From NCBI RefSeq assembly GCF_030013205.1, contig NZ_CP122648.1: a stretch of 64,000 nt of DNA; one strand, 5' to 3'. The translations under genes and the position numbers were made by a program. Source of the DNA: Escherichia coli (lineage in GTDB: Bacteria; Pseudomonadota; Gammaproteobacteria; Enterobacterales; Enterobacteriaceae). A model generated the notes under the pieces. It ran no database searches. It saw only the letters and a program-made list of their open reading frames with translations, and was not told where the DNA came from. The number at the start of each line of letters is the position of its first letter. The stretch's first letter is position 1. Below are positions 14,625-58,713 of this stretch, in pieces.

Positions 14625-15305
14625 TGTGCACAGAAAACCCCCAGCTAGGCTGGGGGTTCCGGAAAGCTTTCAGCTTTGAGCCAGTTATTAAAACCCCTTT
14701 TGATTTGTTAAAACACCTTGCGGTCTGGCAACTGCAAGTGTCAAACAAGAAATCAAAAGGGGGTCCCAATGGGGAACGAAAAGAGCTTAGCGCACACCCG
14801 ATGGAACTGTAAATATCACATGGTTTTTGCGCCAAAATACCGAAGACAGGTGTTCTACAGAGAGAAGCGTAGAGCAATAGGCAGTATTTTGAGAAAGCTG
14901 TGTGAGTGGAAAAGCGTACGGATTCTGGAAGCTGAATGCTGTGCAGATCATATCCATATGCTTGTGGAGATCCCGCCTAAAATGAGCGTATCCGGGTTTA
15001 TGGGATATCTGAAAGGGAAAAGCAGTCTGATGCTTTACGAGCAGTTTGGTGATTTGAAATTCAAATACAGGAACAGGGAGTTCTGGTGCAGAGGGTACTA
15101 CGTCGATACAGTGGGTAAGAACACGGCGAAGATACAGGATTACATAAAGCACCAGCTTGAAGAGGATAAAATGGGAGAGCAGTTATCGATTCCCTATCCG
15201 GGCAGCCCGTTTACGGGCCGTAAGTAACGAAGTTGGATGCAAATGTCAGATCGTGTGCGCCTGTTAGGGCGCGGCTGGTAAGAGAGCCTTATAGGCGCAT
15301 TTGAA
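14625..15305 (+). mobile_element. IS200-family (IS200/IS605) insertion element; ends approximate
   Basis: Contains a 152-aa tnpA ORF nearly identical to Salmonella IS200 TnpA as remembered; perfect hairpin cccccag-ctagg-ctggggg at about 14640-14658 upstream of tnpA; K-12 has no such element between ompL and yihN. Exact left and right ends not determinable without an empty-site comparison. Confidence 0.7.
14769..15227 (+). CDS. tnpA: IS200 transposase TnpA (HUH Y1 transposase)
   Basis: MGNEKSLAHTRWNCKYHMVFAPKYRRQVFY...HIHMLVEIPPK...; HUH motif (HIH) and the catalytic-Tyr region recognised; RBS aaagggg upstream. Confidence 0.9.
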   Translation: MGNEKSLAHTRWNCKYHMVFAPKYRRQVFYREKRRAIGSILRKLCEWKSVRILEAECCADHIHMLVEIPPKMSVSGFMGYLKGKSSLMLYEQFGDLKFKYRNREFWCRGYYVDTVGKNTAKIQDYIKHQLEEDKMGEQLSIPYPGSPFTGRK

Positions 15306-20439: not shown

Positions 20440-20587
20440 AACTTTGCCTCAGGCATTAGAAATAGCGCGTTATTGTACACGGATTAATCGCACTACAAAA
20501 CAGGATCACAAACATCCTCCGCAAACAAGTATTGCAGAGTCCCTTTGTGATCGCTTTCACGGAGCATAAAAAGGGTTATCCAAAGGT

Positions 20588-20640
20588 CATTGCACCAATA
20601 TGGTGCTTAATGTTTCCATTGAAGCACTATATTGGTGCAA
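20588..20640 (+). promoter_or_regulatory. Tandem NtrC (NRI) binding sites / enhancer upstream of glnA
   Basis: tgcaccaatatggtgc (20591-20606) and gcactatattggtgc (20624-20638), both fitting the NtrC TGCACC-N5-GGTGCA dyad. Confidence 0.65.
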
Positions 20641-22394: not shown

Positions 22395-23444
22395 ATGGCA
22401 ACAGGCACGCAGCCCGATGCTGGGCAGATCCTCAACTCGCTGATTAACAGTATTTTGTTAATCGATGACAACCTGGCGATCCATTACGCCAACCCCGCCG
22501 CGCAACAACTGCTCGCCCAAAGCTCCCGCAAATTGTTTGGTACACCGTTACCGGAACTGTTGAGCTACTTCTCATTAAATATCGAGCTGATGCAAGAAAG
22601 TCTGGAGGCGGGGCAAGGTTTTACTGATAACGAAGTGACGCTGGTCATCGACGGGCGTTCGCATATCCTTTCTGTGACGGCCCAGCGTATGCCGGACGGC
22701 ATGATCCTGCTGGAGATGGCACCGATGGATAACCAGCGCCGCTTAAGTCAGGAACAGCTACAGCACGCCCAGCAGGTTGCTGCCCGTGATTTAGTGCGCG
22801 GCCTGGCACATGAGATTAAAAATCCGCTTGGCGGTTTACGTGGCGCGGCGCAGCTGCTCAGCAAAGCATTACCTGACCCGTCACTACTCGAATATACCAA
22901 AGTGATTATCGAACAGGCGGACCGGCTGCGAAATCTGGTCGACCGTCTGTTGGGACCGCAACTGCCCGGTACGCGCGTTACCGAAAGTATTCATAAAGTG
23001 GCTGAACGCGTGGTGACGCTGGTGTCGATGGAACTGCCGGACAACGTGCGGTTGATTCGTGATTACGACCCCAGCCTGCCGGAACTGGCGCACGACCCGG
23101 ATCAAATTGAGCAAGTGCTCCTGAATATTGTGCGCAATGCGCTACAGGCGCTGGGGCCAGAGGGTGGTGAAATCATTCTGCGTACCCGCACAGCTTTTCA
23201 ACTGACCTTACACGGCGAGCGTTATCGGCTGGCGGCGCGAATTGATGTGGAAGATAACGGGCCAGGTATTCCGCTTCATTTGCAGGATACACTGTTTTAC
23301 CCGATGGTCAGCGGCCGCGAAGGTGGCACCGGGCTTGGCTTATCCATCGCCCGTAATTTGATTGATCAGCATTCAGGCAAAATTGAATTTACCAGTTGGC
23401 CAGGTCATACCGAGTTCTCGGTTTACCTGCCTATCAGGAAATAA
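22395..23444 (+). CDS. glnL: Nitrogen regulation sensor histidine kinase NtrB (NRII)
   Basis: 349-aa ORF; H-box HEIKNPLGG, and N, G1, G2 boxes. Confidence 0.95.
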
Positions 23445-23455
23445 AGGTGACGTTT

Positions 23456-24865
23456 ATGCAACGAGGGATAGTCTGGGTAGTCGATGACGATAGTTCCATC
23501 CGTTGGGTGCTTGAACGTGCGCTCGCTGGAGCGGGTTTAACCTGTACAACATTTGAGAACGGCGCGGAGGTACTGGAGGCGCTGGCGAGCAAAACGCCGG
23601 ATGTGCTGCTTTCAGATATCCGTATGCCGGGAATGGACGGGCTGGCGCTGCTCAAGCAGATTAAACAGCGCCATCCGATGCTTCCGGTCATCATTATGAC
23701 CGCACATTCCGATCTGGATGCTGCCGTCAGCGCCTATCAACAAGGGGCGTTTGATTATCTGCCCAAACCGTTTGATATCGACGAAGCCGTGGCGCTGGTT
23801 GAGCGCGCCATCAGCCATTATCAGGAACAGCAGCAGCCGCGTAATGTTCAGCTTAACGGCCCAACGACCGATATCATCGGCGAAGCGCCAGCCATGCAGG
23901 ACGTGTTCCGTATTATCGGTCGGCTTTCGCGTTCTTCTATTAGCGTGCTGATTAACGGCGAATCCGGCACCGGTAAAGAACTGGTCGCTCATGCCCTGCA
24001 TCGCCACAGTCCGCGAGCCAAAGCGCCATTTATCGCGCTGAATATGGCGGCTATCCCGAAGGATTTGATCGAATCAGAACTGTTTGGTCACGAGAAAGGC
24101 GCGTTTACCGGCGCGAATACCATTCGTCAGGGGCGTTTTGAACAGGCCGATGGTGGCACATTATTCCTCGATGAAATTGGCGATATGCCGCTGGATGTGC
24201 AGACCCGTTTGCTGCGCGTGCTGGCAGACGGTCAGTTTTATCGCGTTGGCGGCTATGCGCCGGTGAAAGTGGATGTGCGGATTATCGCTGCCACTCACCA
24301 GAATCTTGAACAGCGGGTGCAGGAAGGCAAGTTCCGTGAGGATCTGTTCCACCGCCTGAACGTCATCCGCGTTCATCTGCCGCCGCTGCGCGAACGTCGG
24401 GAAGATATTCCCCGTCTGGCACGCCATTTTTTACAGGTTGCCGCGCGCGAACTGGGAGTAGAAGCGAAGTTACTGCATCCGGAAACCGAAGCCGCGCTGA
24501 CGCGTCTGGCTTGGCCAGGCAACGTGCGCCAGCTGGAAAACACCTGCCGCTGGCTAACGGTAATGGCTGCCGGACAGGAAGTGTTGATTCAGGATTTGCC
24601 TGGCGAACTGTTTGAATCAACGGTTGCGGAGAGTACTTCGCAAATGCAACCGGACAGTTGGGCGACGCTGTTAGCGCAGTGGGCAGACAGGGCGCTGCGT
24701 TCCGGTCATCAAAATCTGCTTTCCGAAGCGCAGCCTGAGCTGGAGCGGACGTTACTGACGACCGCGTTGCGACATACGCAAGGGCATAAACAGGAAGCGG
24801 CGCGGCTACTCGGCTGGGGGCGTAACACTCTGACGCGGAAGTTAAAAGAGCTGGGGATGGAGTGA
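23456..24865 (+). CDS. glnG: Nitrogen regulation response regulator NtrC (NRI), sigma-54 activator
   Basis: ORF 23396..24865 trimmed to [20 protein letters not shown]; receiver domain, AAA+ ([14 protein letters not shown]) and C-terminal HTH; 469 aa. Confidence 0.95.
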
Positions 24866-24976
24866 TTCACGGCTTGTGTGTAAAGATTGATTATTGAGCG
24901 CAAATTGCTGGTATTTTGCGCTTTACTGTTCCGATAAGTTCAGTATGATCTTGCCCGGAAAACGGGGAGAGTCATT

Positions 24977-25087
24977 ATGCTGGAATCAATAATTAATCTG
25001 GTATCGAGTGGCGCAGTTGACAGCCACACACCGCAAACTGCTGTTGCTGCCGTGCTGTGTGCCGCGATGATTGGTCTGTTTAGTTGA
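24977..25087 (+). CDS. yshB: Small membrane protein YshB (36 aa)
   Basis: ATG at 24977 preceded by ggggaga; MLESIINLVSSGAVDSHTPQTAVAAVLCAAMIGLFS; recognised as the small protein annotated between glnG and hemN in K-12. Too short for the ORF track. Confidence 0.65.
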   Translation: MLESIINLVSSGAVDSHTPQTAVAAVLCAAMIGLFS

Positions 25088-25121
25088 GTTTCAGATTGCT
25101 GATGAAATGCTCTTTGTTCAT

Positions 25122-25209
25122 GCCGGATGCGGCGTGAACGCCTTATCCGGTCTACAAAAGCAATATTTTCAACAGGTTTTGTAGGCCTGATAAGCGTAGC
25201 GCATCAGGC
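25122..25209. repeat. BIME (pair of REP palindromic units)
   Basis: gccggatgcggcgtgaacgccttatccggtctac ... gtaggcctgataagcgtagcgcatcaggc. Confidence 0.7.
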
Positions 25210-25276
25210 AATCTTGTTCTCAGCACATTGATGGCGCTTTCGTTTTCTACTTTGTAAACGAAGCGCCATTCACTAT

Positions 25277-27348: not shown

Positions 27349-27413
27349 AATGGTTCGTCTTTTAGCCGTTTTATTCAGTATAGATTTGCGGCGGAATCTA
27401 ACAGAAAGCAAGC

Positions 27414-27659
27414 AAAGAAAAAAGGCGACAGATTACTCTGTCGCCTTTTTTCCTGACTCATAACCCTTAACGGGTCTTACAATCCTTGCAGGCCGCCAAC
27501 ACACCCTGTTTTTCCATTAGCCGGAACAATCCGTGTTGATTCCATTTCCGTTTAATTACGTCTCCGGACGTTTGTCTTCCTGACAATCCTCTGTCTTCGC
27601 CTCCTGGCGCTCCTGACCCTCATCCTGAGTCATTGTTCCTGTTAGCGTCCTCGCTCTAT
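27414..27659 (-). ncRNA. csrC: CsrC small RNA (CsrA-sequestering)
   Basis: Minus strand reads ATAGAGCGAGGACGCTAACAGGAACAATGACTCAGGATGAGGGTCAGGAGCGCCAGGAGG..., with many GGA motifs, ending in the hairpin ggcgacagagtaatctgtcgcc + U-run; matches CsrC as remembered and its known yihA-yihI intergenic location. Confidence 0.85.
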
Positions 27660-28685: not shown

Positions 28686-28796
28686 AATAAAAAACGCCCC
28701 AGTCATTACTGACTGGGGCGGCTAAAATATTCAGCCAAATCCGATTACGTGAAGTAAAAGGTCTGAAAGATAGAACATCTTACCTCTGTACCCTAC
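28686..28796 (-). ncRNA. spf: Spot 42 small RNA
   Basis: Minus strand reads GTAGGGTACAGAGGTAAGATGTTCTATCTTTCAGACC...GCCGCCCCAGTCAGTAATGACTGGGGCGTTTTTTATTGGGCG, matching Spot 42 including its terminator; immediately 3' of polA as in K-12. Confidence 0.9.
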
Positions 28797-28943
28797 GCGA
28801 CTAACTTTACTCTTTTTTGTTCAGTTCAGAAAGCATTTTTTGTAATTTTTTTTCAGTTGTTGCATAGGAATTTCTAATAGCCATCACAAAACGTGACAGC
28901 TTATGTTGCTTACTTACGAAAAAAGGGCATGTTCAGGCGAATC

Positions 28944-37890: not shown

Positions 37891-38010
37891 ATGCCTGGCA
37901 GTTCCCTACTCTCGCATGGGGAGACCCCACACTACCATCGGCGCTACGGCGTTTCACTTCTGAGTTCGGCATGGGGTCAGGTGGGACCACCGCGCTAAGG
38001 CCGCCAGGCA
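37891..38010 (-). rRNA. rrfA: 5S ribosomal RNA
   Basis: Minus strand reads TGCCTGGCGGCC...GGAACTGCCAGGCAT over 120 nt, matching E. coli 5S rRNA with at most one mismatch to my recollection. Confidence 0.95.
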
Positions 38011-38102
38011 AATTCTGTTTCATCAGACCGCTTCTGCGTTCTGATTTAATCTGTATCAGGCTGAAAATCTTCTCTCATCCGCCAAAACATCTTCGGCGTT
38101 GT

Positions 38103-41007
<2,905 letters not shown>

Positions 41008-41190
41008 TCACAACCCGAAGATGTTTCTTTCGATTCATCATCGTGTTGCGAAAATTTGAGAGACTCACGAACAACTTTCGTTGTTCAGTGTTTCAATTTT
41101 CAGCTTGATCCAGATTTTTAAAGAGCAAAACTTCGCAGTGAACCTTTGCAGGTACACTCTGAAGTATTTTTTATTTAATCACTACAGAGA

Positions 41191-41266
41191 TGGTGGAGCT
41201 ATGCGGGATCGAACCGCAGACCTCCTGCGTGCAAAGCAGGCGCTCTCCCAGCTGAGCTATAGCCCC
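41191..41266 (-). tRNA. alaT: tRNA-Ala (anticodon UGC), rRNA spacer
   Basis: Minus strand reads GGGGCTATAGCTCAGCTGGGAGAGCGCCTGCTTTGCACGCAGGAGGTCTGCGGTTCGATCCCGCATAGCTCCACCA. Confidence 0.95.
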
Positions 41267-41308
41267 ATAACATGTAGTTAAAACCTCTTCAAATTTGCCG
41301 TGCAAATT

Positions 41309-41385
<77 letters not shown>

Positions 41386-41453
41386 GTAGAGGTTTTACTG
41401 CTCATTTTCATCAGACAATCTGTGTGAGCACTTCAAAGAACGCTTCTTTAAGG

Positions 41454-42995
<1,542 letters not shown>

Positions 42996-56470: not shown

Positions 56471-58713
<2,243 letters not shown>

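What the first reader, a model, noticed from the sequence alone, without database searches (positions are those of the whole stretch)
24977..25087. 36-codon small ORF (yshB) between glnG and hemN
A short ORF with a decent RBS encoding a hydrophobic C-terminus, missed by the length threshold of the ORF track. Matches a small protein annotated in K-12 as I recall. Function unknown.
Basis: partly seen in the sequence, partly recalled or inferred. Interest (0 to 1): 0.2.

Follow-up and report, generated by a model that had tools for sequence, protein, structure and literature searches.

The report
Known small membrane protein gene yshB

Summary
The ORF is at 24977-25087 (+) and encodes MLESIINLVSSGAVDSHTPQTAVAAVLCAAMIGLFS. 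It lies between glnG and the convergent hemN.

It is yshB. The protein is identical to K-12 MG1655 b4686. The CDS differs from K-12 at 4 synonymous sites. It scores 72 bits against NCBIfam NF033841 (cut-off 34). RefSeq annotates it as a "YshB family small membrane protein". It is single-copy in 5425 of 5426 complete E. coli genomes.

An ORF this short is not above chance on its own, but conservation settles it:
- Orthologs of 36-37 codons sit in the same glnG-yshB-hemN slot in six Enterobacteriaceae genera and in Erwiniaceae.
- They keep the ATG, the Shine-Dalgarno sequence and a TTTACT-16-TATGAT promoter.
- Variable columns per codon position are 14/3/29, and pN/pS is about 0.16.

Published work reports:
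- detection of the protein by mass spectrometry;
- an own promoter that is not induced by nitrogen limitation;
- cleavage of tagged YshB by the intramembrane protease RseP;
- a role for the Salmonella homolog in intracellular replication and virulence.

The molecular mechanism is unknown. My best inference is a C-terminally anchored helical peptide that modulates a larger inner-membrane protein.

Interest is low.

The parts
24977..25087 (+). yshB coding sequence: 36 codons plus a TGA stop. It encodes MLESIINLVSSGAVDSHTPQTAVAAVLCAAMIGLFS.
   Evidence: ORF list. RefSeq annotation at the same bases in a 100%-identical strain. Protein identical to K-12 b4686. NCBIfam NF033841, 72.1 bits. Coding-type substitution pattern.
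24964..24971 (+). Shine-Dalgarno sequence GGGGAGAG. The GGAG core is at 24966-24969, 7 nt before the ATG.
   Evidence: Read. A G-rich SD (GGGAG or GGGGG) is at the same distance in all 11 orthologous loci.
24922..24949 (+). Sigma-70-type promoter-like site: -35 TTTACT (24922-24927), 16-nt spacer, -10 TATGAT (24944-24949). The transcription start is inferred at about 24955-24958, giving a leader of about 20 nt.
   Evidence: Consensus scan, 9 of 12 matches. That alone is not above the shuffle expectation of 0.8. However, both hexamers are conserved in register from Escherichia to Erwiniaceae (TTTACT/TTTACA and TATGAT/TATCAT/TATTAT). PMC9731577 states that yshB has its own promoter. The start site itself is inferred, not shown.
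24897..24922 (+). Hairpin AGCGCAAA-N10-TTTGCGCT followed by TTaCTgTT. It is the likely terminator of the glnALG operon. Its 3' end abuts the yshB -35 hexamer.
   Evidence: Inverted repeat I4. Conserved in all Enterobacteriaceae loci. The terminator function is inferred, and the simple terminator scan did not call it.
25116..25212 (.). REP/BIME-type extragenic palindromes in the yshB 3' region. They are not part of the gene proper and vary between strains and species.
   Evidence: Inverted repeats I1 and I2. Partial match to Rfam naRNA4, a REP-derived family, at 32 bits, below its gathering score. The 431-nt query containing this stretch gives 8-52 places per genome. The stretch is absent from the short yshB-hemN spacers of Enterobacter, Leclercia and Erwiniaceae.
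25231..25269 (.). Hairpin ATGGCGCTT...AAGCGCCAT between the convergent yshB and hemN genes. It is the likely shared, bidirectional terminator.
   Evidence: Inverted repeat I3. Strong predicted stem. Every orthologous locus has a GC-rich hairpin in the yshB-hemN spacer, though not the same sequence. The function is inferred.

Best explanation
This is yshB, a genuine, independently transcribed gene for a 36-residue small inner-membrane protein.

Shown here:
- The ORF, its SD and a promoter-like site are conserved in position and frame across Enterobacteriaceae and Erwiniaceae, under strong purifying selection.
- It is a single-copy core gene of E. coli.

Taken from the literature:
- The protein is made. 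It was detected intact by top-down mass spectrometry, and synthesis-rate data predicted more than 11,000 copies per stationary-phase cell.
- Tagged YshB is cleaved by the S2P intramembrane protease RseP in vivo and in vitro.
- The Salmonella homolog promotes intracellular replication and virulence.

Inferred (about 40-50% for this step):
- The peptide forms two helices, 2-15 and 17-35.
- The C-terminal helix (about P19-S36) anchors it in the inner membrane in the N-in/C-out orientation, which RseP substrates generally have.
- It has no catalytic activity. It would act by binding and modulating a larger inner-membrane protein through the invariant H17-x-P19-Q20-T21-A22...A25..C28-A29 surface, as MgrB does with PhoQ. 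AcrZ with AcrB and MgtS with MgtA are the other examples I have in mind (from my own knowledge).
- RseP and another protease would set its level.
- The partner is unknown.
For: Identity:
- Exact coordinates match the RefSeq yshB CDS.
- K-12 b4686 has an identical protein and 4 synonymous differences.
- NF033841 equivalog, 72.1 bits against a cut-off of 34.
- The exact sequence sits in a cluster named YSHB_ECOLI / 'YshB family small membrane protein'.

Core gene: 5425 of 5426 complete genomes, one place each, at least 95% identity.

Synteny: glnA-glnL-glnG-yshB-<hemN-<yihI is found in E. marmotae, Salmonella, Citrobacter, Leclercia, two Enterobacter species and an unnamed Erwiniaceae species. 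A metagenome contig has the same order with glnG called in two pieces. In Erwinia tracheiphila one extra gene lies before hemN.

Coding signature:
- The ATG is kept in all 11 loci. The stop is in the same place (36-37 codons) in 10; the metagenome contig reads through to 51 codons.
- Variable columns per codon position are 14/3/29 in Enterobacteriaceae.
- Pairwise dN/dS is 0.04-0.21, while synonymous sites are near saturation (pS 0.42-0.76, apart from the closest pair, E. coli and E. marmotae, at 0.22).
- Mean pN/pS is 0.16 in the yshB frame, against 1.3-7 in four other frames.

Promoter and SD are conserved.

Structure and composition:
- AF2 predicts helices 2-15 and 17-35, mean pLDDT 72.8.
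- GRAVY is 1.12, the hydrophobic core is residues 21-36, and there is no K or R.
- Invariant residues are M1 E3 H17 P19 Q20 T21 A22 A25 C28 A29 F35.

Literature:
- RseP class I substrate in four assays (PMC10470546).
- Own promoter, not nitrogen-induced (PMC9731577).
- Top-down MS detection (PMC12529367).
- Copy-number prediction (PMC7549839).
- Core smORF family of Enterobacteriaceae (bioRxiv 10.1101/2020.07.27.224071).
Against: Nothing argues against the gene being real. The mechanism is weakly supported.
- No interaction partner is known.
- The apolar stretch (residues 21-36) is only 15-16 residues long, or about 18 counting from P19, and it runs to the very C-terminus. That is short for a full membrane span.
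- The peptide has no Lys or Arg, so the positive-inside rule gives no orientation.
- The RseP results were obtained with N-terminally tagged constructs. The authors say cleavage of the authentic form remains to be established.
- I could not read the primary papers (Hemm 2008 and 2010, Fontaine 2011, Bomjan 2019). Their content is cited second-hand.
- dN/dS alone does not separate the sense frame from its mirror antisense frame (0.16 against 0.21). That separation rests on the start codon, SD, stops in four taxa, the promoter and protein detection.
Confidence: 0.85

Rival explanations
1. The ORF is a chance open frame in an intergenic spacer or in a non-coding transcript. Nothing is translated.
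For: Short ORFs are abundant here. Ten other ORFs of 20-64 codons overlap the same 411-nt spacer. The promoter-like match is not above the shuffle expectation (1 found, 0.8 expected).
Against: The frame, length, ATG and SD are conserved across two families. The stop is kept in 10 of 11 loci. Substitutions concentrate at third positions (14/3/29), and pN/pS is 0.16 while synonymous sites are near saturation. There is a curated NCBIfam equivalog. The intact protein was detected by top-down MS.
Confidence: 0.01
2. The transcript acts mainly as a regulatory small RNA (or dual-function RNA), and the peptide is incidental. NrsZ, an sRNA, occupies the corresponding position downstream of ntrBC in Pseudomonas.
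For: PMC9731577 notes that Pseudomonas has the RpoN-dependent sRNA NrsZ downstream of ntrBC, in the locus where Salmonella carries yshB. The transcript is short and has its own promoter. From my recollection of the Bomjan et al. abstract, which I could not verify, YshB was found during a search for sRNAs.
Against: Synonymous sites are close to saturation between genera while the amino-acid sequence is kept. That is the opposite of what constraint on RNA sequence or structure would give. No Rfam family matches the region at E<=1 apart from a REP-derived partial hit downstream. yshB is not induced by nitrogen limitation.
Confidence: 0.04
3. The peptide is a type I toxin of the Hok/Ldr/Ibs/TisB kind: a small hydrophobic membrane-damaging peptide held in check by an antisense RNA.
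For: It is small and hydrophobic and has a predicted membrane helix. In the RseP screen it falls in the same substrate class as HokB and HokE.
Against: It is a single-copy core gene with fixed synteny across two families, unlike the patchy, multi-copy toxin loci. No antisense RNA family or conserved antisense promoter was found. It has no Lys or Arg. It is predicted to be present at more than 11,000 copies per stationary-phase cell, which implies no toxicity at that level. Loss of function reduces fitness in the host rather than relieving toxicity (citing Bomjan 2019).
Confidence: 0.02
4. It is a leader peptide whose translation controls a downstream gene by attenuation.
For: It is a short ORF with a good SD in an intergenic region, and hairpins follow it.
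Against: No co-oriented gene lies downstream. The next gene, hemN, is convergent, and in all but one of the loci examined the spacer to it is only 30-189 nt; in Erwinia tracheiphila an extra gene intervenes. The peptide sequence itself, rather than a run of regulatory codons, is conserved.
Confidence: 0.01

Closest known systems
YshB (E. coli K-12 b4686; NCBIfam NF033841 'YshB family small membrane protein'; a Pfam entry PF28018 is listed in precomputed annotations)
   Same: The protein sequence is identical, the position between glnG and hemN is the same, and the length is the same. This is the gene itself.
   Different: There are 4 synonymous nucleotide differences from the MG1655 allele. 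The sequence just downstream of the stop codon also differs.
Salmonella enterica YshB (Bomjan et al. 2019, J Bacteriol 201:e00314-19)
   Same: It is the ortholog: 36 aa, 92% identical, with the same synteny, promoter and SD.
   Different: Three substitutions: V23L, M31L and I32V. The intracellular-replication and virulence phenotype was described for Salmonella. Whether the E. coli protein has a corresponding role is untested.
Small single-pass regulatory membrane peptides of enterobacteria (MgrB-PhoQ, AcrZ-AcrB, MgtS-MgtA, CydX-CydAB)
   Same: The size class is under 50 aa, with one predicted membrane helix and no enzymatic domain. It has stand-alone expression. MgrB and CydX were also candidate RseP substrates in the same screen. 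This is the model for how YshB probably works.
   Different: There is no sequence relationship. No partner is known for YshB. YshB has no basic residues, and its hydrophobic segment runs to the C-terminus. The resemblance is functional analogy only, not membership.
NrsZ sRNA downstream of ntrBC in Pseudomonas aeruginosa
   Same: It occupies the equivalent genomic slot, directly after the ntrC/glnG gene.
   Different: NrsZ is a non-coding, RpoN- and NtrC-dependent RNA. yshB is protein-coding, has its own sigma-70-type promoter and is not induced by nitrogen limitation. No yshB homolog lies next to glnG in the Pseudomonas loci fetched.

Membership tests
YshB family small membrane protein (NCBIfam NF033841, equivalog) | Full-length match to the family profile above the curated cut-off | tested here: met
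   72.1 bits against a cut-off of 34, E = 2.4e-20, residues 1-36 on profile positions 1-40.
YshB family small membrane protein (NCBIfam NF033841, equivalog) | Same sequence and locus as the type member, E. coli K-12 b4686 | tested here: met
   MG1655 annotates yshB between hemN and glnG. The translation is identical and the 4 nucleotide differences are synonymous.
YshB family small membrane protein (NCBIfam NF033841, equivalog) | Orthologs conserved in frame, length and synteny in related genera | tested here: met
   Orthologs of 36-37 codons follow glnG in Escherichia, Salmonella, Citrobacter, Leclercia, Enterobacter, a Klebsiella-like metagenome contig and Erwiniaceae. pN/pS is 0.16.
YshB family small membrane protein (NCBIfam NF033841, equivalog) | A membrane-spanning segment, with the protein located in the inner membrane | tested here: inconclusive
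   There is a hydrophobic helix at about 19/21-36. It is only 16-18 residues long and has no flanking basic residues. Localisation cannot be tested here. Cleavage of tagged YshB by the intramembrane protease RseP supports membrane insertion (PMC10470546).
Pfam family for YshB (PF28018, as listed in precomputed annotations) | Match to the Pfam model | tested here: inconclusive
   The local Pfam-A copy returned no family at E<=1. The precomputed table lists PF28018:YshB for every ortholog. The local copy most likely lacks this model, so the negative result is not informative.
Type I toxin-antitoxin peptides (Hok, Ldr, Ibs, TisB type) | A cis- or divergently encoded antisense RNA, patchy or multi-copy distribution, and toxicity on expression | tested here: not met
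   It is single-copy in 5425 of 5426 genomes with fixed synteny. There is no Rfam antisense RNA and no antisense promoter-like site. High natural abundance is predicted. Toxicity itself was not tested.
Transcription-attenuation leader peptides | A co-oriented structural gene immediately downstream, under control of the leader | tested here: not met
   The downstream gene, hemN, is convergent.

The most novel reading that the evidence does not exclude
YshB is a tail-anchored peptide with no basic residues. Its invariant membrane-proximal H17-T-P-Q-T-A motif and C28 would dock it onto one specific inner-membrane complex. That complex might be connected with its fixed neighbours (anaerobic haem synthesis by HemN, or NtrBC signalling). 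RseP cleavage would act as the off-switch. This would give a defined molecular mechanism for the Salmonella intracellular-replication phenotype. Nothing here tests it. The synteny and the conserved motif are compatible with it but do not demonstrate it.
Probability: 0.12. Interest if true: 0.35.

Novelty: already known. Interest (0 to 1): 0.08.

Why it matters
It matters little as a discovery. yshB has been annotated in K-12, is named by NCBI's annotation pipeline, has a family model, and is the subject of published work.

The case is useful as a calibration point. An ORF below the length threshold of the ORF track can still be a genuine, highly expressed core gene, and comparative codon analysis recovers it cleanly.

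The open question is the molecular partner and mechanism of YshB. That question is of moderate interest for small-protein biology and Salmonella pathogenesis, but sequence analysis of this window does not advance it.

Tried and rejected

2. I used the single genome-contig scan on GlnG as a neutral anchor. Only Citrobacter werkmanii (which has yshB) and Photorhabdus were close relatives. In Photorhabdus a transposase-like ORF follows glnG and no yshB is present. That design therefore gave a poor sample of Enterobacterales. I replaced it with exact-protein look-ups of family members. Those loci were selected for having the gene, so they show conservation where it is present. They do not give an unbiased presence/absence map.

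3. The whole-library phmmer search returned 15 hits. Most are frameshifted or mis-started variants of the same family. Only the Erwiniaceae sequences extended the range.

4. A local HMM search of all stop-to-stop pieces in the 80 GlnG-anchored loci found no further homologs in Vibrio, Shewanella, Pseudomonas and others.

5. dN/dS used as the sole discriminator was rejected. The mirror antisense frame shares the wobble positions and scores 0.21 against 0.16. The strand assignment rests on the start codon, SD, promoter, stops in four taxa and protein detection.

6. The local Pfam scan was negative, although a Pfam YshB entry exists in precomputed tables.

7. The simple terminator scan found nothing. 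The hairpins were found by repeat search and folding instead.

8. The primary papers were not in the held library: Hemm 2008 and 2010, Fontaine 2011, Bomjan 2019 and Storz 2014. One id that I recalled wrongly returned an unrelated paper.

9. I made no fold search. A 36-residue two-helix model at pLDDT 73 would give meaningless matches.

Full report
**Observation.**
The window has an ATG-initiated ORF of 36 codons at 24977-25087 (+), ending in TGA. It encodes MLESIINLVSSGAVDSHTPQTAVAAVLCAAMIGLFS.

It sits in the 411-nt spacer between the end of glnG (24865, + strand) and the end of the convergent hemN (25277, - strand).

GGGGAGAG lies at 24964-24971, with its GGAG core 7 nt before the ATG. Residues 21-36 are strongly apolar (mean Kyte-Doolittle about 2.4). 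The peptide as a whole has GRAVY 1.12, two acidic residues and no Lys or Arg.

An ORF of this size is not significant by itself. Ten other ORFs of 20-64 codons overlap the same spacer.

**Identity.**
- A megablast of the spacer against 5,426 complete E. coli genomes hits the annotated feature 'yshB: YshB family small membrane protein', flanked by glnG and hemN.
- In a 100%-identical strain the annotated CDS coincides base for base with the ORF.
- The K-12 MG1655 record carries yshB (b4686, YP_002791260.1) in the same place. Its protein is identical, and the CDS differs at four synonymous positions.
- NCBIfam NF033841 (small_YshB, equivalog) matches over the full length at 72.1 bits, against a curated cut-off of 34.
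- The exact sequence belongs to a cluster named YSHB_ECOLI.
- The local Pfam copy gave nothing. Precomputed annotations list PF28018:YshB for all orthologs, so the local copy probably lacks that model.

**Is it more than chance?**
A 176-nt query covering the promoter and ORF is present once in 5425 of 5426 complete E. coli genomes, at 95% identity or more.

Family members from other taxa were traced to their contigs. Each time the gene lies directly after glnA-glnL-glnG and before the convergent hemN and yihI:
- E. marmotae, Salmonella, Citrobacter werkmanii, Leclercia, Enterobacter bugandensis and E. asburiae;
- a Klebsiella-like metagenome contig, where glnG is called in two pieces;
- Erwinia tracheiphila, where one extra gene precedes hemN;
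- another Erwiniaceae species.

All 11 loci keep the ATG. Ten keep a stop giving 36-37 codons. The exception is the error-prone metagenome contig, which reads through to 51 codons.

Among the eight Enterobacteriaceae sequences, variable columns per codon position are 14, 3 and 29 of 36. Pairwise Nei-Gojobori dN/dS is 0.04-0.21, with synonymous differences near saturation (pS 0.42-0.76 apart from the closest pair, E. coli and E. marmotae, at 0.22).

As a control I computed the same statistic in all six frames. Mean pN/pS is 0.16 in the yshB frame and 1.3-7.1 in four others. It is 0.21 in the mirror antisense frame, which shares the wobble positions. dN/dS alone therefore does not fix the strand. 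The strand is fixed by the following:
- the conserved ATG and SD;
- the conserved promoter;
- stops in the antisense frame in four taxa, and no start codon for it;
- published detection of the protein.

**Range.**
The whole-library phmmer search found only 15 representatives. All are Enterobacteriaceae or Erwiniaceae sequences, or mis-called variants of them.

No homolog was found by tblastn or by a family HMM in GlnG-anchored loci from Photorhabdus, Vibrio, Shewanella, Pseudomonas and more distant Proteobacteria. That sample has very few Enterobacterales, so the exact phylogenetic boundary is not established.

**Expression signals.**
A sigma-70-type match, TTTACT-16 nt-TATGAT, lies at 24922-24949. 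As a pattern match it is no more than the shuffle expectation. However, both hexamers are conserved in register as far as Erwiniaceae, as is the G-rich SD. [quoted passage not shown]

The -35 hexamer directly follows a conserved hairpin (24897-24922) that probably terminates glnALG.

Downstream of the stop, this strain has REP/BIME palindromes (about 25116-25212). A strong hairpin follows at 25231-25269, between the convergent genes. Other genera have much shorter spacers (30-100 nt), with a different GC-rich hairpin or REP. Termination by these hairpins is inferred.

**The protein.**
The alignment of ten diverse members shows these invariant residues: M1, E3, H17, P19, Q20, T21, A22, A25, C28, A29 and F35. 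The best-conserved block is the polar HTPQTA motif, at the N-terminal edge of the apolar segment.

AlphaFold2 on this shallow alignment predicts helices 2-15 and 17-35, at mean pLDDT 72.8.

The apolar segment is short (16-18 residues) and runs to the C-terminus. With no basic residue, orientation cannot be predicted from sequence.

**Literature read here.**
- PMC10470546: N-terminally tagged YshB is a 'class I' RseP substrate. It was positive with plasmid-borne and chromosomal RseP in vivo, and with purified enzyme in vitro. Another, unidentified protease also clips it. The authors note that cleavage of the authentic protein remains to be shown. They cite Bomjan et al. 2019 for a role of the Salmonella homolog in replication in host cells and in virulence.
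- PMC12529367: intact YshB was detected by top-down proteomics. It has no tryptic sites.
- PMC7549839 and PMC10502375: more than 11,000 copies per stationary-phase cell were predicted from synthesis-rate data. A C-terminally His-tagged version was not detectable.
- bioRxiv 10.1101/2020.07.27.224071: this is a core smORF family in E. coli, Klebsiella, Salmonella and Shigella.
- The primary papers (Hemm 2008 and 2010, Fontaine 2011, Bomjan 2019) were not available.

**Mechanism.**
Shown: this is a conserved, translated, independently transcribed small-protein gene.

Reported by others: membrane-protease susceptibility and a Salmonella infection phenotype.

Inferred (roughly 40-50%): the C-terminal helix anchors the peptide in the inner membrane in the N-in/C-out orientation that RseP substrates generally have. 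The peptide would act by binding a larger membrane protein through the invariant HTPQTA...A..CA face, in the manner of MgrB, AcrZ or MgtS. Proteolysis would limit its level. No partner is known.

**Rivals.**
- Chance ORF: excluded by conservation and protein detection.
- Regulatory RNA: disfavoured, because synonymous sites are free to vary and no RNA family matches.
- Type I toxin: disfavoured, because it is a single-copy, syntenic core gene with no antisense RNA and high natural abundance.
- Leader peptide: excluded, because the downstream gene is convergent.

**Verdict.**
The gene is already known and annotated, so the finding is ordinary. The only open biology is YshB's molecular partner, and this window cannot resolve that.

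Noticed in passing
window 25116-25212: REP/BIME-type palindromes lie between yshB and hemN, with a partial naRNA4 (REP-derived) match at 32 bits, below its gathering score. This stretch makes the 431-nt query hit 8-52 places per genome. Only 5241 of 5426 genomes cover at least 80% of that query, against 5425 for the yshB core. The REP content of the spacer therefore varies between strains. It is absent in Enterobacter, Leclercia and Erwiniaceae.
   Followed up: partly
L097:301-481 (E. coli EC21GDE043, NZ_CP099721.1): This is a natural null allele. Codon 20 is CAA->TAA, which truncates YshB to 19 residues, and the RefSeq annotation has no yshB there. In addition, one of the 5426 complete genomes has no match at all.
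   Followed up: partly
window 24977-25084, - strand: The mirror antisense frame of yshB has no stop over the whole interval in 7 of 8 Enterobacteriaceae. Its pN/pS is 0.21 because it shares the wobble positions. It has no start codon for the full length, and it has stops in the Klebsiella-like contig and in Erwiniaceae. It appears to be a by-product of the sense coding constraint, not a gene.
   Followed up: yes
The local Pfam-A library returns no family for YshB. The precomputed annotations attached to public contigs list PF28018:YshB. The local Pfam copy seems to lack this model, so negative Pfam results for other small proteins may be similarly uninformative.
   Followed up: no
window 27406-27659 (-), 28688-28806 (-), 14636-14759 (+), 20521-20628 (-), 58108-58359 (-), 37893-42995 (-): The Rfam gathering-level scan of the whole window finds CsrC, Spot 42, STnc490, ES222, the Erse sRNA and a complete rrn operon (16S, two tRNAs, 23S, 5S, plus StyR-44). 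The GlnZ sRNA that K-12 annotates in the glnA 3'UTR is not reported, presumably because no Rfam model reaches threshold.
   Followed up: no
L003:4536-5945 (Photorhabdus caribbeanensis): Directly downstream of glnG there is a 469-aa ORF on the opposite strand whose translation looks like an IS-family transposase to me (not searched). No yshB homolog is present. I cannot tell whether yshB was never there or was displaced.
   Followed up: no
Two of the 5425 yshB matches are on records labelled as plasmids. These are most likely mislabelled or chimeric replicons carrying the chromosomal glnG-hemN region. I did not inspect them.
   Followed up: no
window 23396-24865: The mechanical ORF list starts glnG at a TTG at 23396 (489 aa). 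The annotated GlnG (469 aa) starts at the ATG at 23456. The difference is only an artefact of the longest-ORF rule.
   Followed up: yes
L095:3001-3156 (metagenome contig, Klebsiella-like): Here the yshB homolog has lost its stop and runs to 51 codons, overlapping the hemN 3' end. glnG is also split in two on the same contig. This suggests assembly or sequencing errors rather than biology. Several other 50%-cluster representatives (P0032, P0035-P0038) are likewise frameshifted or mis-started versions.
   Followed up: partly
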